From Patescibacteria group bacterium (lineage in GTDB: Bacteria; Patescibacteriota; Minisyncoccia; Phycocordibacterales; PALSA-1337): 64,000 bases of DNA. This document shows positions 4,726 through 44,632 of the stretch, piece after piece. How positions within the stretch are numbered: position 1 is the stretch's first letter; each line of letters begins with the position of its first letter. The translations under genes and the position numbers were made by a program. Below the pieces are notes generated by a model. It searched no databases. It was not told where the DNA came from and saw only the letters and a list, made by a program, of their open reading frames with translations. Where the stretch lies: NCBI GenBank assembly GCA_038061795.1, contig JBBTYL010000003.1:128041-192040 (forward strand). Direction: 5' to 3'.

Positions 4726-6405
4726 TTAAAGCGTCTCCTGATCTGGCACAACGACATTCGACTTCCAGAACTTATGATGGAGAGTAGCCCAAACCTCCTT
4801 TATTTCCCTGTTCTTGAGTATTACAAGCACGATGATCCCCGCGATTATGCCTACGATGCCCGCGCAGAAACCCTGAAGAAACACTCCCCACGCCTTGTCG
4901 AGCGTAAAGAAAAGATTGAAGAAACGGAGAGAAAGGAATGTCACATAACCCATGATGATAGAAGCGCAGAAACTCTGGAAAAGCGCCGCGATGACCGGCT
5001 TGGTGAAGCCAGGATAATCCTTCTCGAAAATATGCCAATGAAGATAGGTATTGAAGATGATTCCGATCGAATATGCCAGAGGAAGCACAAGAACGCTAGT
5101 TCCCATCTGTCCAGAAACCTTGAGCAAGTCCTGAAGAAAAAAAGCAAACATCGGAAAAGCGAAAAAGGCCTTCGTAAATCCATAACCGAGTCCGGCGATG
5201 ACAAGCCCGGAAATGATGTTTATGATAAGTGGCTTCCGCGTCTTCCCTTCAGCATAATATGCGCGAACGAAAAGAAGAATGAGGCTCTGGCCGATGACAG
5301 AAACGATGAAAATTGCGAGCGTGGCGGCCGTGAGGCGCGTGTCGGCCCAATCGAACTTTCCAGCACCGTAGATGGTTCGGACGATTTGCGCGCGAAGCAC
5401 TATGAAGAGCACCATGATTGGGATCGACCAAAAGACAATGTGGCGGGCAGAATCAATCATCTGGCCAAGGAATTCGGTGCGGTTCTTTTCAACAAAAAAT
5501 TTAGACAGTGTCGGGAATACAGCGGAAGAATAACTGACGCCGATGATGGAAAGCGGTACGGATTGGAGATTGAGCGCGAGATTGAAGATGGAGATTGATC
5601 CGCCGCTCATGAGAGAGGCAAGAGCGATCAGGAAAAAGGAGGCAAGCTGATTGGCGGAAAGCGTCAGCGTCCTCGGCAGGGAAATCATTACCACCTTCCT
5701 GATGTCATTCCAATCGATGCGGAAATTGAAGCTAGGGAAGGTTTCCTTGTGCATGATGAAAGGAATCTGTATCGTCATATGCAAGAGCGCGCCTATCACG
5801 ACGCCCCAGATCAGGCCATGCAATCCTAGGAAAGGATATAGGAATATGATGCCGAAGATTATGCCGGCATTGTATACGACCGGACTAAGCGCATATACGA
5901 GGAATCGGCGGTGCATCTGCGTGATGCTTGAAAGGAAATTTGAGAGGCCTAGGAAGATCGGGGAAAGAAGAAGTATCCTCGTCGCCGAAATGAGTTCCGG
6001 CAAGGACGGATCATTGACGAATCCAGGTATAAGGATCTGTATGAGCCAAGGTATCAGGAAATAAGCGATGATGCTCACGGCGATGATCGCAAGAAAGAAA
6101 GCAGAGAAGATGCTGTCGATGAATTTCCTTCCCTTATCGGAATCTTTATGGAACCGATCGATGAAGAACGGCACTAGCACGGAAGCAGACACTACCGAGG
6201 CGACAGAAACGAATATCAGATCAGGAATCCTGAATGCGGAATAATAAACGTCGAGCATATGACCAGCTCCGAAGCTGTAAGCAAGAAGCTTGTCACGGAC
6301 AAGCCCAAGCACCTGCGACATGACCGCAAAGAATGCGAGAAGATACGCAGCTTCATGAAGGCCGCGTATCTCTTTGCCCATCATCTCGAAAAACTTTTTT
6401 ACCAT
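4726..6405 (-). CDS. murJ: lipid II flippase MurJ (MviN family)
   Basis: 559 aa, about 14 TM helices, with the N-terminus LGLVRDKLLAYSFGAG typical of MurJ/MOP exporters. Its ATG overlaps the upstream stop (TAATG). Confidence 0.88.
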   Translation of the reverse strand: MVKKFFEMMGKEIRGLHEAAYLLAFFAVMSQVLGLVRDKLLAYSFGAGHMLDVYYSAFRIPDLIFVSVASVVSASVLVPFFIDRFHKDSDKGRKFIDSIFSAFFLAIIAVSIIAYFLIPWLIQILIPGFVNDPSLPELISATRILLLSPIFLGLSNFLSSITQMHRRFLVYALSPVVYNAGIIFGIIFLYPFLGLHGLIWGVVIGALLHMTIQIPFIMHKETFPSFNFRIDWNDIRKVVMISLPRTLTLSANQLASFFLIALASLMSGGSISIFNLALNLQSVPLSIIGVSYSSAVFPTLSKFFVEKNRTEFLGQMIDSARHIVFWSIPIMVLFIVLRAQIVRTIYGAGKFDWADTRLTAATLAIFIVSVIGQSLILLFVRAYYAEGKTRKPLIINIISGLVIAGLGYGFTKAFFAFPMFAFFLQDLLKVSGQMGTSVLVLPLAYSIGIIFNTYLHWHIFEKDYPGFTKPVIAALFQSFCASIIMGYVTFLSLRFFNLFFTLDKAWGVFLQGFCAGIVGIIAGIIVLVILKNREIKEVWATLHHKFWKSNVVVPDQETL

Positions 6406-38646: not shown

Positions 38647-40149
38647 ATGAAAAAACCTATAATGCTTATCGTGCTCGACGGCTGGGGCCACCGCGAAGAG
38701 ATAAAGGACAATGCAATAAGACAGTCAAAAACCCCATTTTTCAACACGCTTTGGGATAAATATCCCCATTCCCTGCTGAAAGCCTCTGGAAATGCTGTGG
38801 GTTTGCCTGAAGGCCAGATGGGCAACAGCGAAGTCGGCCACACTACTATAGGAGCCGGGAAACCAGTCGATACTGACCTCGTTCGCATCGACAAAGCCAT
38901 AGCAGAAGGAGCACTTCATACGAACCCAGCCTTCGTCGCTCTTTTTGAGCATATAAAGAAAAATAATTCGACCCTTCATGTGCAGGGTCTCGTCAGTATC
39001 GGCGGAGTTCACAGCCACCAGAACCATCTTTTCGCCTTCTTGCGGGAAGCCAAGGCTCAAGGAATGAAAAAAGTTGCTATCCATGTCTTTACAGACGGCC
39101 GAGACACGCCTCCCCAGAGCGCTTCAAAGTACATGAAAGAGCTTGAGGCGCTTATTGAGGAACTCGGCCCGGAATTCTTCATCGCAACTATCTCAGGACG
39201 ATACTACGCCATGGATCGCGACAACAACTGGGACCGTCTCGCAAAAGCCGAACAGGCGATGTTCGAATGCAAAGGCAATGTCTGTGAAATCAAGCCTTCA
39301 GCTTATCTTGAAGAACAATACAAGCTCGGCAAGACCGATGAGCTCCTCGAACCAGCCGTCTGCGCCACACTTGAGGGCCGAGGTTGCGCCCTTGAAAAGA
39401 ACGATGGCGTCTTTTTCTTCAATTTCCGTGCTGATCGCGCCAGAATGCTCACCCAGAAGCTCATCGAGAAGCAGAAAGCTGACAATATTTACGTCGTAAC
39501 CTTAACTGAATACTGCATCGATTATACGTGCCACGTCGCCTTTCCTCCTTCAAATATCGAAGTGACGCTTGGAGAAGAGGTCTCTCGAGTCGGACTCAAG
39601 CAAAGCCACATTGCTGAGACTGAAAAATTCGCCCATGCCACCTATTTCCTCAACGGCGGACGAGAAAAGCCATACGATGGAGAGACTGATATCATGCTTC
39701 CAAGCCGAAAAGACGTGAAAACACACGATGAAGCTCCCGAAATGCGCGCAGAGGGCATTGCGGACAAGGCTATCGAGGAAATCGAGAAGGGAGTCGACTT
39801 TATTTTCATAAACTTCGCAAATCCTGATATGGTCGGACATACCGCAAACGTTCCGGCCATCATAAAAGCGGTTGAGACAGTAGATACCCAGCTCAACCGA
39901 GTCATTACGGCACTTGAAAAGAAAGGTGGGGTCGCCTTCATCACTGCTGATCATGGAAATGCAGAGGTTAACATCGACCCAATCACTGGAACGAGACATA
40001 CAGCTCACACCGTAAATCCTGTACCCGCAATTCTCACAGATACTTCACACACGCTCAGAGATGGCGGTCTTGCTGACATCGCACCGACCATCCTTGCACT
40101 CCTCGACATAGAAACTCCAGCAAAAATGACTGGAAAGAAGCTTATTTAG
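38647..40149 (+). CDS. gpmI: 2,3-bisphosphoglycerate-independent phosphoglycerate mutase
   Basis: 500 aa with LIVLDGWG, NSEVGH, TADHGNAE and full iPGM colinearity. TAGAAT lies 8 nt upstream of the ATG. Confidence 0.95.
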   Translation: MKKPIMLIVLDGWGHREEIKDNAIRQSKTPFFNTLWDKYPHSLLKASGNAVGLPEGQMGNSEVGHTTIGAGKPVDTDLVRIDKAIAEGALHTNPAFVALFEHIKKNNSTLHVQGLVSIGGVHSHQNHLFAFLREAKAQGMKKVAIHVFTDGRDTPPQSASKYMKELEALIEELGPEFFIATISGRYYAMDRDNNWDRLAKAEQAMFECKGNVCEIKPSAYLEEQYKLGKTDELLEPAVCATLEGRGCALEKNDGVFFFNFRADRARMLTQKLIEKQKADNIYVVTLTEYCIDYTCHVAFPPSNIEVTLGEEVSRVGLKQSHIAETEKFAHATYFLNGGREKPYDGETDIMLPSRKDVKTHDEAPEMRAEGIADKAIEEIEKGVDFIFINFANPDMVGHTANVPAIIKAVETVDTQLNRVITALEKKGGVAFITADHGNAEVNIDPITGTRHTAHTVNPVPAILTDTSHTLRDGGLADIAPTILALLDIETPAKMTGKKLI

Positions 40150-40227: not shown

Positions 40228-40827
40228 CTAATGCCAAGAAGATCCTCTTATGTTCCACAAAGTGATCCCCTTTAATTTGAGATCAGCGATGAATCCGTTA
40301 GTGTCGAGTTCATAGCGAGTGGGTGCATCTAGAAGCATCTTGCGATGCGTGTAGAACGAGTCTGTTGTAATGCCTGTCAGCATATTCGCGGCATTTGCTT
40401 GATAGTTTGTCTGACCTACCGCATCCGCAAAGACAAGCTCATTCTCGATCCCCATAACCCCGACCTCAAGAACATATTGTTCGAGGTTATTGAAAACCCT
40501 AACGTTCCAAGACTCAGGAGCAAGTTTATAGATGACTCGTGTCGCACCATTCGTATAGTTGCGCAAAGAATTCTGGTACCAAATCCCTGCCGGGACATGA
40601 TGGAATTTCTCTTCTTTTTCAAAATACAGGTCATTATTCCCTTGGACAACAAAGGGAAAACCGTACACCAACGAAAGAAACGCAAGCGGAAACGAGAAAA
40701 GCATAATAGCTCCGACAACTGTTTTTTTCCTGCTTTTTGCATTGACAAACAATGAACATCCGACTATCGTTGCAGCAAGGAATCCAAGCAACGTGAAGAA
40801 GACCATCATGAGAGGTAATCGTATCAT
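40228..40827 (-). CDS. membrane-anchored protein, unknown function
   Basis: 199 aa with two N-terminal TM helices. There are no recognisable motifs. Confidence 0.55.
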   Translation of the reverse strand: MIRLPLMMVFFTLLGFLAATIVGCSLFVNAKSRKKTVVGAIMLFSFPLAFLSLVYGFPFVVQGNNDLYFEKEEKFHHVPAGIWYQNSLRNYTNGATRVIYKLAPESWNVRVFNNLEQYVLEVGVMGIENELVFADAVGQTNYQANAANMLTGITTDSFYTHRKMLLDAPTRYELDTNGFIADLKLKGITLWNIRGSSWH

Positions 40828-40919
40828 AAGAGTTTCACTTTCATTTAGAAGTTTTCAAACCGCAAGCAGCTTTCGACTGCCAGCAAAGAGCTTCAGCCCA
40901 GTGCCATTTACTGGTATTT

Positions 40920-40947
40920 ATTATGCATAAAAATATAAAAAAGTCAA
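40920..40947 (-). promoter_or_regulatory. sigma70-type promoter for the 40228-40827 gene
   Basis: The minus strand reads TTGACT (40947-40942), a 16-nt spacer, then CATAAT (40925-40920). Here the leader is ~90 nt and contains hairpins, an exception to the leaderless pattern. Confidence 0.5.
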
Positions 40948-40951
40948 GAGT

Positions 40952-42226
40952 CTATCCCCTCCTATATTCCCTGAATTTCGTTATAAAAAGCCCAAAATAC
41001 CTCACTGAAAGTATCATAAGCGTCGTCCAGAAAAGGCCGAAACCAATGCCTGCCACCACATCAGAAACCCAGTGTACGCCAAGATAGATCCTACTGAAGC
41101 CGACAAGAAGCCCTAGCGCAACACAAACAACGATAAAAAGCTCTCTCCAAACAAGCAGTTGTATCCTCCGCGCAAAGATATAGATGGCAAGGGCAAAGAA
41201 GATGGTTGCCGCGACAGCATGCCCGCTCGGGAAGCTGTACCCTGTTTCTATAAGAAAAGCTGTTTCCGGACGGGCGCGCATGACAAGAGCTTTCATGATG
41301 CTATTCAAGACAAATCCCCCGCCGATTGAAGAAAAAGTGATGACTGCATATCTCCAGGATTTTTTATAGATAAAGTAGATCATGGCTGCCAAGCCTGCAG
41401 CAGCAATCATTTCCGGACTGAAAACATTCGTAATGACATTCATGAATGTCAGCCAGACCGCAGTCGCATGCGTCAAGAAGAAGAAATTGATCCAGACATC
41501 GAAATCAGCCATGAATGCGTGGTCGCTCAAGGCATCCTGCACCGTCTTGAAAAAGATGAAAAGGCCGGCGAGATTCGCGACAAGCGTAATAAGCTCGTAT
41601 TTTGCAAAGATATGGAACTGCTTGTTAACGAAGCGATATGCCATGACTATAAGGATAGCAAGAATTATGCCAATGACAATGAACTTTCCAAGTAGGCCCG
41701 CAACAGTATGGTAGCTTGCTCCGAATATATAGCCGACCGAGAGCGATAGCGATGTCCAGATTAGGACGCCGATGAGGTCAAGCGGCAGGAATTTCTTGAA
41801 CGGAATTCCGCTTGCACCAACAATGAAAGGCGCCAGTGGACGTGTTACTGGGCTGAATCTGCCAAGAATAGTCGTCTTCCCCACATGTTTGCTGATCAAT
41901 CCACTGACTCTTTCTATTTTGTCCTCAGTGATGAAAAAATACTTGCCGAATTTGCTTAGAAGCATGAATCCGAACCTTTTCCCGCAATAATAGGCAACGC
42001 AATCCCCTCCCAATGCACCAAGGACGATAAGTGGCACAATGATGTAGATATTGAGAACTTGGAGCTTGGCAAGAAAACCTGAAAGGATGACGATGGTGTG
42101 GCCAGGGACGAATTGGCCTATTGCCGGGACTCCTTCGAGGACAGTGACGAGAAAAAGAGCTATGTATCCCCCGTGCTCGATGATGGCTTCGATGTGGGAG
42201 ATGATGGGGGCGAGGAAAGAGTGCAT
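40952..42226 (-). CDS. DedA (VTT/SNARE-associated) domain fused to a PAP2 phosphatase
   Basis: The N-terminal ~190 aa are DedA-like (LEGVPAIGQFVPGHTIVILSGFLA...GGDCVAYYCGKRFG...LGRFSPVTRPLAPFIVGASG). The C-terminus carries the three PAP2 motifs KALVMRARP, PSGH and SRIYLGVHWVSD. Confidence 0.85.
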   Translation of the reverse strand: MHSFLAPIISHIEAIIEHGGYIALFLVTVLEGVPAIGQFVPGHTIVILSGFLAKLQVLNIYIIVPLIVLGALGGDCVAYYCGKRFGFMLLSKFGKYFFITEDKIERVSGLISKHVGKTTILGRFSPVTRPLAPFIVGASGIPFKKFLPLDLIGVLIWTSLSLSVGYIFGASYHTVAGLLGKFIVIGIILAILIVMAYRFVNKQFHIFAKYELITLVANLAGLFIFFKTVQDALSDHAFMADFDVWINFFFLTHATAVWLTFMNVITNVFSPEMIAAAGLAAMIYFIYKKSWRYAVITFSSIGGGFVLNSIMKALVMRARPETAFLIETGYSFPSGHAVAATIFFALAIYIFARRIQLLVWRELFIVVCVALGLLVGFSRIYLGVHWVSDVVAGIGFGLFWTTLMILSVRYFGLFITKFREYRRG

Positions 42227-42344
42227 GGGAATTGTACGTGGCGATGATTATACCATATCCCGTATGAAGTTTTAGTGAAGAAATTTCGGGGTTTTGCACA
42301 GATTATTTTGTTGGGAAAGAGAAAAATAAACTATAATGATTCTC

Positions 42345-43025
42345 ATGAAAATTTTAATAATTGAAGATGATGAGGACGTAATTGATTTTCTAAGGGTCAG
42401 CCTTAAATCAGAATCTTTTACGGTTGATGTCGCGAGAAATGGTTCAGATGGCTCATTCCTGGCTCGAACGAACCCCTATGATATGATAATAATTGATTAC
42501 TCACTCCCCGTTAAAAATGGCCTGACTGTCTGCAAAGAAATCAGGACTGCAGAAATTGAAACTCCAATAATTTTCCTGACAATCCATTTGGAAATCAAAA
42601 AGAAAATCGATGCTTTAGATATTGGCGCAGATGATTACATAGTAAAGCCATTTTCATTTGACGAGCTGAGGTCAAGGATCTATGCAATCAAAAGAAGGCC
42701 TAAGAAGATCGAAAGCTTAATATTGGCAGCTGGCGATATAGTAATTGATACAAGAAAACAGGATGCTCGCAGAGAAAACATAGCACTTAACTTAACAAGA
42801 AAAGAATACAATCTGCTTGAGTATCTTGTCAAAAATAAAAATATGGTTGTATCGCGAGGAATGATCATGGAACATGTGTGGAACGCCGAAAGTGATCCCC
42901 TATCAAACACCGTAGAAGCTCACATCCTTAATTTGAGAAAAAAAATAAATATAGAATCAGCACTAGGAAAGAATAAAGAAATTATTAGGAATGTTCCTGG
43001 GCGCGGTTACATAATTGATGCGTAG
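42345..43025 (+). CDS. OmpR/PhoB-family response regulator
   Basis: Receiver domain (MKILIIEDDEDV, IIIDYSLP, KPF) plus a winged-helix C-terminus (...GRGYIIDA). The start at 42345 is supported by TATAAT (42332-42337) 7 nt upstream. Confidence 0.9.
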   Translation: MKILIIEDDEDVIDFLRVSLKSESFTVDVARNGSDGSFLARTNPYDMIIIDYSLPVKNGLTVCKEIRTAEIETPIIFLTIHLEIKKKIDALDIGADDYIVKPFSFDELRSRIYAIKRRPKKIESLILAAGDIVIDTRKQDARRENIALNLTRKEYNLLEYLVKNKNMVVSRGMIMEHVWNAESDPLSNTVEAHILNLRKKINIESALGKNKEIIRNVPGRGYIIDA

Positions 43026-43267
43026 TTAAAATTTAATCAATATTTTATAATTTTTTTTATTTTTCTTTATTACCAGTTGTTATACTTTCAGGCGTTATAA
43101 GTCGAAATAACATTTAGCCATTAAAAAAATAACCATGAATAACTACATACAACAGATACTTTCTGGTGAAGCTGGACGAAAAAGCATCACCATAGAATCA
43201 GCATCCAAAAATGCTGATGAAAATTTCTTGCCGTGGAGCGGATAAGCTCGATTTAAAATATGAATAT

Positions 43268-44632
43268 ATGAAATTCAAAATACATCGGCTTTACATGGCA
43301 AAATCTCAGGATGAGGACACAAAAAGGCATGAGTATATACTCAATATAATCCTTTGCGTATCAATCCTCATATTGACCTTATACGATCTTATCATCCTTA
43401 GAAACTCTCTTGTAAAAACGATAGATTATGATGGGATACAATTTGCGACATTCACAGCAATTATTTGTGCGTACGTGGTTTTATTAATACTCTCAAAAAG
43501 AGGTTACATAAAAACAGCATCGTATGCCCTCATAGCTTCATATTGGGCAGGCGCGCTCCATTGCGGGTACCAATGGGGCGCTAGTTTGCCTATAACATTA
43601 ATAACCTTTATTCTTGTCATTTTTATCTCATCAATTCTGATAAGTTCTAAATTTGGGGCATCAGTGACTTTCATCACTATAATATCATTTGTATTGCTTG
43701 GCATTCATGAGTATAAGAATCCAGAAATATTGTCTTGGCGAATGGATTCAATCAACAACACTGATTTAATAGCATATTCATTTTTTCTTGTTGGCATAGC
43801 ATTGCTTTCGTGGCTTTCTAACAAAGAAACTGAGAGATCATTGAGACGAGCGCGCAACTCAGAAAATGAACTGAAAAATGAAAGGGATCAGCTCGAAATA
43901 AAGATAGTCGAAAGAACAAAAGAACTTAGAGAAAGTCAGTTGATGCGAATGTCAGAGCTTGAAAGGATAGCAGAGTTCGGCAGGCTATCACAGGGCTTGT
44001 TTCATGACCTAATCTCCCCATTGACATCAGTCATGCTTCATATGGAAAAGATAAAAGGGATTTCGCCGTCAGAATTAAATGAATCGCATGCCTCGTTAGA
44101 AAAAATAGTCATTGCTTCAAAGAAAATGGGAGAGAACATGCAAAATTTAAGATTTTCCCTGAGAAACACTTTGCCACCTAGGCAATGTTCAATTGCGGAT
44201 GAGCTCAATAAATGCATCGGTTTTCTTAAATTTAAAATAAGAGAGAATAACATAAGCATTAGGATTAAAAATGACTCAAATTGTTTGTGGTTCGGCGATC
44301 CAGTCAAATTACAACAAATATTCTCCAATCTTATAACGAATGCCATTGATGCCTGCACCTCAAAAAACACCGAAGCTGGAAAAATTATAATCAGCTTAAA
44401 CTCTCACGATAAGAAGTGTCGAATAAGCATAAAAGACAATGGTATCGGAATGGACGCAGAAACAATTAAAAAAATATTTGACCCGTTTTTCACGACAAAA
44501 CCACCGGAACTCGGCACTGGAATCGGACTTACAACTGTTCAAAGAATTATGGACGAAATCAATGGAACCATATCAGTTAAGAGTATAAAAGATGGTGGTA
44601 GCACTTTTATACTATTATTACCACTAAAATAG
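43268..44632 (+). CDS. membrane sensor histidine kinase
   Basis: About 6 TM helices, then H-box FHDLISPLTSV, N-box NLITNAIDA, G1 DNGIGM and G2 GTGIGL. The start is uncertain (43211, 43268 or 43295); 43268 has TAAAAT 8 nt upstream. Confidence 0.82.
   Translation: MKFKIHRLYMAKSQDEDTKRHEYILNIILCVSILILTLYDLIILRNSLVKTIDYDGIQFATFTAIICAYVVLLILSKRGYIKTASYALIASYWAGALHCGYQWGASLPITLITFILVIFISSILISSKFGASVTFITIISFVLLGIHEYKNPEILSWRMDSINNTDLIAYSFFLVGIALLSWLSNKETERSLRRARNSENELKNERDQLEIKIVERTKELRESQLMRMSELERIAEFGRLSQGLFHDLISPLTSVMLHMEKIKGISPSELNESHASLEKIVIASKKMGENMQNLRFSLRNTLPPRQCSIADELNKCIGFLKFKIRENNISIRIKNDSNCLWFGDPVKLQQIFSNLITNAIDACTSKNTEAGKIIISLNSHDKKCRISIKDNGIGMDAETIKKIFDPFFTTKPPELGTGIGLTTVQRIMDEINGTISVKSIKDGGSTFILLLPLK

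What the first reader, a model, noticed from the sequence alone, without database searches (positions are those of the whole stretch)
40952..42226. Rosetta-stone fusion of a DedA domain with a PAP2 lipid phosphatase, divergent from a two-component system
A single 424-aa polytopic protein joins a complete DedA/VTT domain to a complete PAP2 domain. The PAP2 motifs KxxxxxxRP, PSGH and SRxxxxxHxxxD are all intact. PAP2 enzymes of the BcrC/PgpB type dephosphorylate undecaprenyl pyrophosphate on the outer face of the membrane. DedA-family proteins have been implicated in returning undecaprenyl phosphate to the inner face. A covalent fusion would couple the two consecutive steps of lipid-carrier recycling. 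The gene is divergently arranged with an OmpR-type response regulator and histidine kinase pair (42345-44632), which suggests envelope-stress control. I do not know how common this fusion is. It supports a functional link and may mark a minimal carrier-recycling module in a reduced genome.
Basis: partly seen in the sequence, partly recalled or inferred. Interest (0 to 1): 0.55.

Follow-up and report, generated by a model that had tools for sequence, protein, structure and literature searches.

The report
Known DedA–PAP2 lipid-carrier fusion protein
A real, intact membrane protein that joins a lipid-carrier phosphatase to a DedA transporter-like domain; this fusion is already named in databases and discussed in the literature, so it is a new member of a known kind, with some unreported details.

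Summary
The 424-aa ORF (40952-42226, minus strand) is real. It carries VTT/DedA and PAP2 domains above Pfam cut-offs, with all PAP2 catalytic motifs intact. It is not an artefact: contigs from other runs cross the domain junction without indels, and 23 of 24 congeners have it. Charge counts and published DedA topology place the PAP2 site outside.

The fusion is not new. NCBI names it "bifunctional DedA family/phosphatase PAP2 family protein". Roney & Rudner already used it as Rosetta-stone evidence, with about 1.3% of dedA genes fused.

Most likely it dephosphorylates undecaprenyl-PP outside, while the DedA half handles the product. It holds the only PAP2 and there is no BacA in this genome.

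Caveats:
- A second, canonical DedA exists.
- The fused DedA lacks the essential Asp (YghB D51 is His here).
- The tested Pseudomonas fusion PA4011 did not act as a flippase.

The divergent regulator is kept beside it in 20 of 24 loci. Relatives have a pho-box-like repeat there, but it is weak in the window and recurs genome-wide. The genus lacks UppS.

The parts
40952..42226 (-). Whole fusion gene, 424 aa plus stop: N-terminal DedA module and C-terminal 6-TM PAP2 module
   Evidence: (AlphaFold2 mean pLDDT 85.2, pTM 0.72)
41612..42226 (-). DedA/VTT module, residues 1 to about 205 (Pfam VTT_dom 40-166 = nt 41729-42109). E31, R123 and R129 align with YghB E39, R130 and R136. H43 sits at the YghB D51 position
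40955..41602 (-). PAP2 module, residues 209-424 (Pfam PAP2 296-410 = nt 40997-41341), six helices, motifs C1 to C3 intact. Closest solved structure is B. subtilis PgpB/YodM, 5jki
   Evidence: E 3.2e-29; target TM-score 0.79
42247..42255 (-). Extended -10 (TGGTATAAT on the fusion's coding strand), 20 nt upstream of the fusion ATG. A TGnTAnnnT-type match lies 7-25 nt before the ATG in 17 of 20 relatives' intergenic regions
42264..42285 (.). Two 11-bp units (ATGAAGTTTTA, GTGAAGAAATT) 11 nt from the -10 hexamer. This is positionally homologous to the tandem 11-bp direct repeat of relatives. In the window itself only 6 of 11 positions match (P = 0.69)
42291..42300 (.). GTTTTGCACA block, the counterpart of the conserved GATTTCCACA block of relatives. 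Role unknown
   Evidence: read by eye, not scored
42336..43025 (+). OmpR/PhoB-type response regulator (Response_reg + Trans_reg_C), the only Trans_reg_C protein found in this assembly. TATAAT at 42332-42337 lies 7 nt before the second ATG (42345), so the true start is probably 42345 on a leaderless or near-leaderless mRNA
43211..44632 (+). Histidine kinase: five hydrophobic segments between residues 43 and 202 with short loops, H-box at H265, HATPase_c at 362-472. A membrane-embedded sensor without a large outer domain. The start codon is uncertain

Best explanation
The gene encodes a polytopic inner-membrane protein of a known bifunctional architecture.

The C-terminal half is a 6-helix PAP2 lipid-phosphate phosphatase with its active site on the outer face. 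Its most likely substrate is undecaprenyl pyrophosphate, released when peptidoglycan (and any other carrier-built glycan) is polymerised.

The N-terminal half is a COG0586-type DedA domain. It keeps the Glu and the two re-entrant-loop Arg residues that bind undecaprenyl phosphate in UptA. It most likely receives the Und-P product from the adjoining phosphatase and returns it to, or equilibrates it with, the inner leaflet. The fusion would therefore shorten the hand-off between two consecutive steps of carrier recycling.

The second membrane-embedded acidic residue (YghB D51) is replaced by His here. It is non-Asp in nearly all fused forms. The DedA half therefore probably works differently from the stand-alone proton-dependent flippases. 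A canonical stand-alone DedA in the same genome probably does the bulk flipping.

In this genus the gene probably lies under the divergent OmpR-type two-component system, through an activator-type promoter in which direct repeats take the place of the -35.

Shown here: the domains, the motifs, the predicted outward topology, the integrity of the gene, its conservation and its synteny. Inferred: the substrate, flipping by the DedA half, and control by the regulator.
For: - Both domains pass Pfam cut-offs. The six PAP2 catalytic residues are intact in 96 of 109 full-length representatives, and the DedA E/R/R triad in 100 of 109.
- Fold: the C-terminal half matches B. subtilis PgpB 5jki (Foldseek E 8.5e-5, target TM-score 0.79). 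By sequence profile the match is E 3.2e-29. E. coli PgpB is titled a 'PGP and C55-PP phosphatase' (8bm3).
- Topology: K+R is 21 of 81 residues inside and 4 of 98 outside. The YqjA C-terminus (G217C) is cytoplasmic and V180 periplasmic by SCAM. The review states that PAP2 active sites lie outside the cytoplasm.
- Need for the enzyme: MurJ is in this window, and MraY is in 39 of 41 genomes sampled, including 23 of 24 congeners.
- Sole candidate: the fusion holds the only PAP2 in this genome. No BacA and no DUF368 were found. BacA was not found in 14 of 24 congeners, six of them 98-100% complete.
- PGP is not made: PgsA-type PF01066 was found in 0 of 24 congeners and not in G000.
- UptA R112, R118 and E32 bind C55-P. 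Their equivalents are invariant here.
- Envelope neighbours in some loci: Wzy_C directly upstream in L008, BacA divergently adjacent in L105, and MurB nearby in L054. A MurB-like FAD_binding_4 gene follows in L008, with similar N-termini in L013 and L016.
- The published gene-neighbourhood argument.
- Regulation: the regulator is adjacent in 20 of 24 loci. A tandem 11-bp repeat with 2 mismatches or fewer occurs in 8 of 20 loci, against 0-4 at other periods. It lies 10-11 nt from an extended -10. G007 lost the DedA half but keeps regulator, repeat, -10 and PAP2. This is the only Trans_reg_C regulator in the assembly.
Against: - P. aeruginosa PA4011, the same architecture at 437 aa, could not complement the flippase mutant. 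It did not worsen that mutant's defects either. [quoted passage not shown]
- The fused DedA lacks the Asp named as functionally essential in YqjA/YghB. There is no Asp among the 38 close homologues, 1 in 109 representatives and none in 8 diverse fusions.
- A canonical DedA with the full tetrad is present and scores higher on the DedA and UptA models (162 and 70 bits, against 78 and 48). The fused half is therefore not needed as the flippase.
- Every substrate-specific NCBIfam model is far below its cut-off (SepP 35.4 of 250, PgpB 33.2 of 261, PRK11837 23.4 of 229, LpxE 21.1 of 177).
- The closest solved structure is titled a PGP phosphatase.
- The assembly is only 84.65% complete, so BacA could lie in the missing part. 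Ten of 24 congeners have both BacA and, in nine of these, the fusion.
- Regulation: the window's own repeat is 6 of 11 (P = 0.69). The motif recurs 5-23 times per congener genome (control 0-1), so it may be a general promoter or curved-DNA element. A degenerate form is not enriched in G000 (30 against 28).
- Regulator adjacency is confined to the closer clade: 6 of 28 full-length loci.
- iPGM adjacency is also conserved (10 of 24 loci), so plain inherited synteny can explain much of the pattern.
Confidence: 0.55

Rival explanations
1. The PAP2 half is the Und-PP phosphatase, but the fused DedA half is not a flippase. It may be a lipid-binding or substrate-delivery module, or a membrane scaffold, that presents Und-PP to the active site or holds Und-P. 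The stand-alone canonical DedA (contig 2) does the flipping.
For: - PA4011 genetics.
- Loss of the D51-equivalent Asp in essentially all fused forms.
- The stand-alone DedA with the full E/D/R/R tetrad is conserved in most congeners.
- G007 dispensed with the DedA half and kept the PAP2 with its promoter.
Against: - E31, R123 (R or K) and R129 remain under strong conservation, in 100 of 109 representatives. That would be unexpected for a mere anchor.
- 25 of 109 representatives keep an acidic Glu at the position.
- His could still carry a proton (inference).
- PA4011 comes from a distant organism with six DedA paralogues.
Confidence: 0.25
2. The protein is a general membrane-lipid remodelling or scavenging device unrelated to the glycan carrier. 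The PAP2 half would dephosphorylate phosphatidic acid, lysophosphatidic acid or another scavenged host lipid phosphate on the outer face. The DedA half would scramble phospholipid, as proposed for TMEM41B and VMP1.
For: - The closest solved structure is a phosphatidylglycerophosphate phosphatase.
- No carrier-specific NCBIfam model reaches its cut-off.
- The authors of the PA4011 study suggest 'phosphoregulation or membrane lipid remodeling'.
- The lineage lacks PgsA and so must obtain lipids from outside (inference).
- Todor et al. propose scramblase roles for other DedA subfamilies.
Against: - Without PgsA there is no PGP to hydrolyse.
- A cell with MraY and MurJ needs an Und-PP phosphatase, and none other was found in G000 or in 14 of 24 congeners.
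- PAP2 fusions are reported for the COG0586 subfamily, the putative Und-P flippases.
- Wzy_C, BacA and MurB are neighbours in some loci.
Confidence: 0.15
3. The fusion is an assembly or frameshift artefact that joins two separate genes.
For: None found.
Against: - There is no indel or joint in 4 runs from 2 studies, and contigs bridge the junction.
- There is a single frame in 23 of 24 congeners.
- All 120 best database hits carry both domains.
- 109 of the 150 best 50%-identity representatives are 380-520 aa long.
Confidence: 0.01

Closest known systems
'Bifunctional DedA family/phosphatase PAP2 family protein' (NCBI name); the dedA-pap2 fusions of Roney & Rudner, Fig. 3A and S11
   Same: Same two Pfam domains in the same order in one protein of about 420-440 aa. 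Homologues carrying this NCBI name are 43-57% identical over 94-98% of the query. The published reading is the same one: sequential Und-PP dephosphorylation and Und-P flipping.
   Different: Nothing architectural. This instance belongs to a Patescibacteria genus that has no UppS. I could not see the preprint's Table S2, so I cannot say whether Patescibacteria examples were among theirs.
Pseudomonas aeruginosa PA4011 (437 aa, PF09335 + PF01569)
   Same: Same architecture and length. A P. marincola protein of this architecture (L130, 439 aa) aligns along its whole length at 27% identity. It also lacks Asp at the YghB D51 position, carrying Thr.
   Different: PA4011 was tested genetically. It gave no fosmidomycin phenotype, could not replace the flippase PA4029, and its function 'remains elusive'. 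It works in a cell with six DedA paralogues and de novo carrier synthesis. It has no divergent OmpR-type regulator in L130.
UptA (B. subtilis YngC) and E. coli YghB/YqjA, the stand-alone DedA Und-P flippase candidates
   Same: VTT domain. The Glu and the two Arg residues spaced six apart on the second re-entrant loop are conserved. The predicted helix pattern shows two helix-loop-helix hairpins.
   Different: YghB D51 is His here. NCBIfam UptA equivalog scores are 47.6 and 41.2 bits, against cut-offs of 250 and 300. The domain is covalently followed by a phosphatase.
B. subtilis PgpB/YodM (PDB 5jki) and the PAP2 Und-PP phosphatases BcrC, YbjG, PgpB and LpxT
   Same: Six-helix membrane PAP2 fold (target TM-score 0.79) and identical catalytic motifs. 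The active side is the outer face.
   Different: About 26% identity. The protein is below every equivalog cut-off. The substrate is not established.
PhoB/OmpR-type activator promoters (pho box: two 11-bp direct repeats replacing the -35, about 10 bp from the -10). This geometry is recalled textbook knowledge, not taken from a call
   Same: Relatives have two tandem 11-bp repeats 10-11 nt upstream of an extended -10, next to an OmpR-family regulator gene. The generic scan found no -35/-10 pair there.
   Different: The repeat sequence (GATAAAATTTT) is unrelated to the pho box. It is degenerate in the window. It occurs at 5-23 sites per congener genome, often in arrays of 3-4 units. Binding is untested.

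Membership tests
DedA / VTT domain (Pfam PF09335; COG0586-type) | Scores above Pfam's gathering cut-off over the whole domain | tested here: met
   59.8 bits against 33.9, profile positions 1-122 of 123. Best NCBIfam hit is PRK10847 'DedA family protein' at 78.2 bits, below its equivalog cut-off of 236.
DedA / VTT domain (Pfam PF09335; COG0586-type) | Two re-entrant helix-loop-helix hairpins plus membrane-spanning helices, with a cytoplasmic C-terminus | tested here: inconclusive
   The model's secondary structure shows H12-31/loop/H42-54 and H115-124/loop/H132-138 between long helices. The charge distribution fits. I could not inspect coordinates, and no solved DedA structure was matched.
DedA / VTT domain (Pfam PF09335; COG0586-type) | Functionally essential tetrad of YqjA/YghB: E39, D51, R130, R136 (named) | tested here: not met
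   E31, R123 and R129 align with E39, R130 and R136, but D51 aligns with H43. Asp occurs at this column in 1 of 109 full-length representatives.
UptA (NCBIfam equivalogs NF052604 and NF052605) | Score above the curated equivalog cut-off | tested here: not met
   47.6 bits against 250 and 41.2 bits against 300.
PAP2 superfamily (Pfam PF01569), integral-membrane type | Pfam cut-off passed, and motifs KxxxxxxRP, PSGH and SRxxxxxHxxxD present | tested here: met
   66.4 bits against 27.2. Motifs are present and invariant in 38 sequences.
PAP2 superfamily (Pfam PF01569), integral-membrane type | Six-helix fold like solved membrane PAP2 enzymes | tested here: met
   5jki: Foldseek E 8.5e-5, target TM-score 0.79, rmsd 3.3 over 202 columns. 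6ebu (LpxE): target TM-score 0.75.
PAP2 superfamily (Pfam PF01569), integral-membrane type | Active site on the outer face of the membrane | tested here: met
   By prediction only. The positive-inside count is 21 of 81 against 4 of 98. The DedA C-terminus is cytoplasmic in YqjA. No experimental topology exists for this protein.
Und-PP phosphatases of PAP2 type (NCBIfam SepP NF047884; PRK11837; PgpB PRK10699) | Score above the equivalog cut-off, or demonstrated C55-PP hydrolysis | tested here: not met
   35.4 of 250, 23.4 of 229 and 33.2 of 261 bits. Activity cannot be tested with these tools. The assignment rests on the absence of any other candidate.
Bifunctional DedA family/phosphatase PAP2 family protein (NCBI name) | Both domains in one reading frame, DedA N-terminal, and close full-length homologues that bear the name | tested here: met
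   All 120 best hits carry PF01569 + PF09335. Five of them bear the NCBI name, at 43-57% identity. Integrity of the frame was confirmed.
OmpR/PhoB-type two-component control through a direct-repeat box | Receiver plus winged-helix regulator, and a kinase with H-box and HATPase domain | tested here: met
   Response_reg 97 bits, Trans_reg_C 78.2 bits, HATPase_c 95.7 bits. H-box at H265.
OmpR/PhoB-type two-component control through a direct-repeat box | Tandem direct repeats at about 11-bp period, correctly placed at the target promoter | tested here: inconclusive
   Met in 8 of 20 related loci, 7 of them with shuffle P of 0.01 or less. The window's own pair is 6 of 11 (P = 0.69). The motif is genome-wide in congeners.
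OmpR/PhoB-type two-component control through a direct-repeat box | The regulator binds the box and changes transcription | not testable with these tools
   No RNA run holds the locus. Binding needs EMSA or footprinting.

The most novel reading that the evidence does not exclude
This lineage cannot build its own glycan carrier. UppS was found in 0 of 25 genomes of the genus, and polyprenyl synthase in 0 of 41 genomes of the order sample. It still runs MraY and MurJ. The fused protein could therefore be a carrier-salvage machine rather than a mere recycler. It would capture host-derived Und-PP or Und-P arriving in the outer leaflet and strip the distal phosphate. It would then pass the Und-P to a DedA half that has given up the proton-coupling Asp and simply equilibrates the lipid inward. 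The cell's only OmpR-type two-component system, with a membrane-embedded sensor, would switch it on when carrier is scarce. The family-wide loss of the D51-equivalent Asp would then mark a mechanistically distinct, phosphatase-coupled DedA subfamily. That subfamily is shared by CPR bacteria, DPANN-labelled archaea and Proteobacteria.
Probability: 0.15. Interest if true: 0.75.

Novelty: new member of a known kind. Interest (0 to 1): 0.36.

Why it matters
The fusion itself adds nothing new to the argument that DedA proteins recycle undecaprenyl phosphate. That use of it is already in print.

Three things found here could matter.

1. Fused DedA domains almost never keep the Asp that is essential in YqjA/YghB. 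Together with the negative genetics for PA4011, this suggests the fused forms are a mechanistically separate subfamily. They should not be annotated as flippases by analogy.

2. In this genus the fusion is often the only recognisable Und-PP phosphatase, in cells that cannot synthesise the carrier at all. This makes carrier recycling or salvage a likely point of dependence on a host, and so a concrete, testable piece of Patescibacteria symbiosis biology.

3. The conserved promoter architecture next to the cell's only OmpR-type regulator gives a rare handle on transcriptional control in these organisms.

Tried and rejected
- Expression: no RNA holder is listed for the locus, so no transcript start or level could be read.
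- Regulon in the window's own genome, first scan: TGAAG-N6-TGAAG gave 10 sites against 1.45 in mononucleotide shuffles. That null ignores codon structure.
- Regulon in the window's own genome, second scan: a degenerate two-unit pattern gave 30 matches against 28 for the backwards control. No enrichment was shown, and I dropped this line.
- The generic sigma-70 scan found 11 promoter-like sites against 7.5 +/- 3.3 in shuffles. None lay at the conserved extended -10. It is not informative on its own.
- L012, one of the regulator-less loci, has a 309-nt upstream region with no repeat box.
- Link between the fusion and UppS loss: rejected as specific. Eleven of 16 other genera of the order lack UppS without having the fusion. 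G231 has both the fusion and UppS.
- Link between the fusion and BacA loss: not clean. Nine congeners have both.
- Literature searches for undecaprenyl with Patescibacteria and with 'candidate phyla radiation' listed 4 and 3 papers, none on carrier synthesis by their titles and abstracts. These two searches of an open-access library do not show that the point is unpublished.
- MraY absence in G000: rejected as biology. It is present in 23 of 24 congeners, so it is an assembly gap.
- I did not run complex prediction, the ESM Atlas, or a second structure prediction of the isolated DedA half. No solved DedA fold was available to compare it with.
It was corrected and sent again.
Full report
**Observation.** The ORF at 40952-42226 (minus strand) is 424 aa with an ATG start. 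Pfam finds a complete VTT/DedA domain (residues 40-166, 59.8 bits, cut-off 33.9). It also finds a complete PAP2 domain (residues 296-410, 66.4 bits, cut-off 27.2). The three PAP2 motifs read KALVMRARP, PSGH and SRIYLGVHWVSD. Their catalytic residues are invariant in a 38-sequence alignment of homologues 41-88% identical to the query. An OmpR-type response regulator (Response_reg + Trans_reg_C) and a histidine kinase lie divergently upstream. The gap between the genes is 109 bp.

**Not an artefact.**
- Contigs of four DNA runs from two studies were laid on 40900-42400. None of these runs was flagged as the likely source of this assembly. They show substitutions only, with no inserted or deleted letters and no joints.
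- Single contigs of X3, X5 and X6 cross the domain junction (about 41590-41640) with 0 gaps.
- A full-length single-frame match (query about 1-420) is present in 23 of 24 congeneric genomes at 41-88% identity.

**How common, and is it known?**
- Of 8000 scored candidates in the 5.8-billion-protein search, 1231 had E of 0.001 or less. All 120 listed best hits carry PF01569 + PF09335.
- Five of those bear the NCBI name 'bifunctional DedA family/phosphatase PAP2 family protein [Patescibacteria group bacterium]'. Eleven bear JGI's 'undecaprenyl-diphosphatase'.
- The exhaustive representative search gave 244 clusters at E of 1e-30 or less. Of the best 150, 109 are 380-520 aa long.
- In an even draw of 400 genomes of the phylum, only G231 showed a full-length match among the listed rows. 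A further 210 weaker rows were not listed.
- In the species-representative genome collection, 28 of the 79 kept loci are full length. Their record titles name Patescibacteria (Taylorbacteria, Parcubacteria, 'Saccharibacteria'). They also name archaea (Nanoarchaeia, Woesearchaeota, 'Archaeon BMS3Abin17') and Proteobacteria (Burkholderiales, Mesorhizobium, Pseudomonas marincola and others).
- In passages of the Roney & Rudner preprint (10.1101/2022.02.03.479048) I read that dedA and pap2 genes are adjacent in some genomes and fused in others. [quoted passage not shown] The authors take this to support sequential steps of the lipid II cycle.
- Passages of Todor et al. (PMC9881974) note PAP2 fusions in the COG0586 subfamily.

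**Topology.**
- The AlphaFold2 model is confident (mean pLDDT 85.2, pTM 0.72). It shows two helix-loop-helix hairpins (12-31/42-54 and 115-124/132-138) among long helices. After a four-residue turn (205-208) come the PAP2 helices.
- With the PAP2 motifs placed outside, the inside loops hold 21 K+R in 81 residues. The outside loops hold 4 in 98, and all four lie within PAP2 motifs C1 and C3 (K312, R317, R319, R379).
- In passages of the YqjA topology preprint (10.1101/2021.10.18.464800), G217C near the C-terminus is cytoplasmic. V180C is periplasmic, and V99C and L117C are cytoplasmic. That orientation is what a following six-helix PAP2 needs to face outward.
- The review PMC12826051 (passages) states that PAP2 and BacA active sites lie outside the cytoplasm.

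**What the PAP2 half most likely does.**
- Its closest solved relative is B. subtilis PgpB/YodM. The 5jki profile E-value is 3.2e-29. Foldseek gives E 8.5e-5 and a target TM-score of 0.79.
- All substrate-specific NCBIfam models are far below their cut-offs, so homology does not fix the substrate. Context does better.
- The window's genome (635,871 bp, 84.65% complete) has MurJ. MraY is missing from the assembly, but it is present in 39 of 41 sampled genomes, including 23 of 24 congeners. I read its absence as an assembly gap.
- The fusion holds the only PAP2 domain in the genome. No BacA and no DUF368 were found.
- BacA was not found in 14 of 24 congeners, six of them 98-100% complete.
- PgsA-type transferases were found in 0 of 24 congeners and not in G000. 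Phosphatidylglycerophosphate is therefore not made there.

A cell that polymerises peptidoglycan must dephosphorylate Und-PP. Here the fusion is the only visible candidate.

**What the DedA half does is less clear.**
- Aligned with E. coli YghB, the fusion keeps E39, R130 and R136 (E31, R123, R129). YghB D51 is His43.
- The YqjA preprint names E39, D51, R130 and R136 as the functionally essential residues.
- The UptA preprint (10.1101/2024.04.02.587717, passages) shows that R112, R118 and E32 contribute to C55-P binding.
- At the D51 column the 109 full-length representatives have Gln in 44, Glu in 25 and His in 13. Ala, Gly, Ser and other residues make up the rest. Asp appears only once.
- Eight diverse fusions (the window, Pseudomonas, Burkholderiales, three archaeal-labelled records and two other Patescibacteria) have H, T, E, M, Q, Q, Q and Y at that column.
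- The same genome has a second, stand-alone DedA on contig 2 with the full E/D/R/R tetrad. It scores higher on the DedA and UptA models. Similar stand-alone copies are seen in most congeners.
- In passages of PMC12893004, P. aeruginosa PA4011 (437 aa, PF09335 + PF01569) did not affect fosmidomycin sensitivity and could not complement the flippase mutant. [quoted passage not shown]

I therefore keep 'couples dephosphorylation to handling of Und-P' as the best single explanation. A sizeable share goes to a non-flippase role for the DedA half.

**Carrier synthesis.**
- UppS (PF01255) was not found in G000 or in any of 24 congeners. It was found in 5 of 16 other genera of the order.
- Polyprenyl synthase (PF00348) was found in 0 of 41 genomes. 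Both searches ring in 14 of 14 control genomes.
- Across the phylum draw, UppS is present in 248 of 401 genomes. That tally includes one unpublished genome, G194.
- The loss is not tied to the fusion. Eleven UppS-less genera lack the fusion, and G231 has both.
- It does mean that in this genus the carrier pool can be kept up only by recycling or by uptake.
- Two literature searches found nothing on this point. That does not show it is unpublished.

**Regulation: synteny.**
- The divergent regulator lies beside the fusion in 20 of 24 loci of the genus, own locus included. In these loci the fusion is down to about 40% identical.
- The four exceptions have other neighbours. One is a Wzy_C + TPR protein directly upstream.

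**Regulation: promoter.**
- On the fusion's coding strand, relatives share this order: two tandem 11-bp repeats (for example AAAATTTTATC, AGAATTTTATC), then 10-11 nt, then an extended -10 (TGGTATAAT), then 7-25 nt, then the ATG.
- A tandem pair with 2 mismatches or fewer is seen in 8 of 20 loci at period 11. The counts are 4, 2, 1, 0, 0 and 0 at periods 8, 9, 10, 12, 13 and 14. Seven of the eight have shuffle P of 0.01 or less.
- G007 is the one congener without the fusion. It keeps the regulator divergent from a 144-aa PAP2-only gene, with the same repeat (8 of 11), spacing and -10.
- The regulator is the only Trans_reg_C protein found in G000.
- The kinase has five hydrophobic segments with short loops and an H-box at H265.

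**Regulation: evidence against a specific link.**
- The window's own pair matches at only 6 of 11 positions (P = 0.69).
- The 21-nt motif occurs 5-23 times per genome in five congeners, against 0-1 for the reversed control. It often forms intergenic arrays of 3-4 units. It may be the site of a global regulator, or a general promoter or curved-DNA element.
- A degenerate form is not enriched in G000.
- Beyond the closer clade, the regulator is absent from the neighbourhood. It is adjacent in 6 of 28 full-length loci. Three distant loci have some other kinase gene nearby.
- Inherited synteny is also visible for a phosphoglycerate mutase on the other side.

I put direct control by this regulator at roughly even odds.

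**Verdict.** This is a genuine, intact member of an already named and published architecture. It needs tempering for the DedA half. The added value of this look lies in three points:
- the near-universal loss of the D51-equivalent Asp in fused forms;
- the dependence of a UppS-less lineage on this protein as its only visible Und-PP phosphatase;
- a conserved activator-type promoter architecture.

Noticed in passing
whole genome G000 and relatives (MurJ lies at about 4897-6285, minus strand, in the window): No UppS (PF01255) was found in G000 or in 24 of 24 congeners, and it was found in only 5 of 16 other genera of the order. No polyprenyl synthase (PF00348) was found in 41 of 41 genomes. MraY (39 of 41) and MurJ are present. 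Across the phylum draw, 153 of 401 genomes lack a UppS match. This suggests the glycan carrier lipid must be acquired from outside.
   Followed up: partly
L036 707-2329 (-) = G002; similar frames in G008, G012 and G015: In four congeners BacA/UppP sits in a frame of about 540-558 aa. In G002 the C-terminal half carries what I read by eye as M23-peptidase-like motifs. This would be a fusion of an Und-PP phosphatase to a cell-wall hydrolase. It was not scanned against Pfam.
   Followed up: partly
L039 1353-1787 (+) in G007: The one congener without the fusion has a 144-aa stand-alone PAP2 with all three motifs at the same locus. It is still divergent from the regulator and keeps the same repeat and extended -10. 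It looks like a secondary loss of the DedA half.
   Followed up: partly
congener genomes G005, G008, G012, G015, G017 (loci L041-L052): The 11-bp tandem motif (GATAAAATTTT-like) recurs 5-23 times per genome, against 0-1 for the reversed control. It is mostly intergenic and often forms arrays of 3-4 units, several of them identical copies. Its nature is open: a global regulator site, a promoter upstream element, or phased A-tract curvature.
   Followed up: partly
window 38647-40149 (+) and related loci: A phosphoglycerate mutase lies next to the fusion in many loci, but of two unrelated types. iPGM lies on the opposite strand in 10 of 24 congener loci. A His_Phos_1 dPGM lies co-directionally in L008, L054, L058, L061, L062 and L068 (by Pfam). 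A similar N-terminus is seen in L013 and L016. Enolase is often nearby. This looks like non-orthologous displacement within a conserved block.
   Followed up: no
window 40228-40827 (-): A 199-aa ORF with no Pfam or NCBIfam hit and a hydrophobic N-terminus ending ...IVGC (lipoprotein-like, read by eye). It lies between the fusion and iPGM. It is absent from that position in the nearest relative's locus L006. A promoter-like site lies just upstream at 40947-40920.
   Followed up: no
L059, L071, L092 (records titled archaeon, Nanoarchaeia, Woesearchaeota): Full-length fusions 35-41% identical to the window protein occur on contigs labelled as DPANN-type archaea. This is either gene transfer between CPR bacteria and DPANN archaea or mis-binning.
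   Followed up: no
window 42332-42345: A perfect TATAAT lies 7 nt before the regulator's second ATG (42345) and overlaps the first ATG (42336). In several relatives the fusion's own -10 ends 7 nt before its ATG. Leaderless mRNAs may be common here.
   Followed up: no
window 42001-44000: GC content drops to 0.373 over the two-component genes, against 0.449 and 0.453 in the flanking 2-kb windows.
   Followed up: no
L104, L119, L121; G199, G438: Other long architectures were seen: PAP2 + LssY_C (L104, 544 aa), VTT domain in a 721-aa protein (L119), and VTT + DUF2252 in a 1135-aa protein (L121). DedA-like matches also lie in 712- and 719-aa frames in G438 and G199.
   Followed up: no
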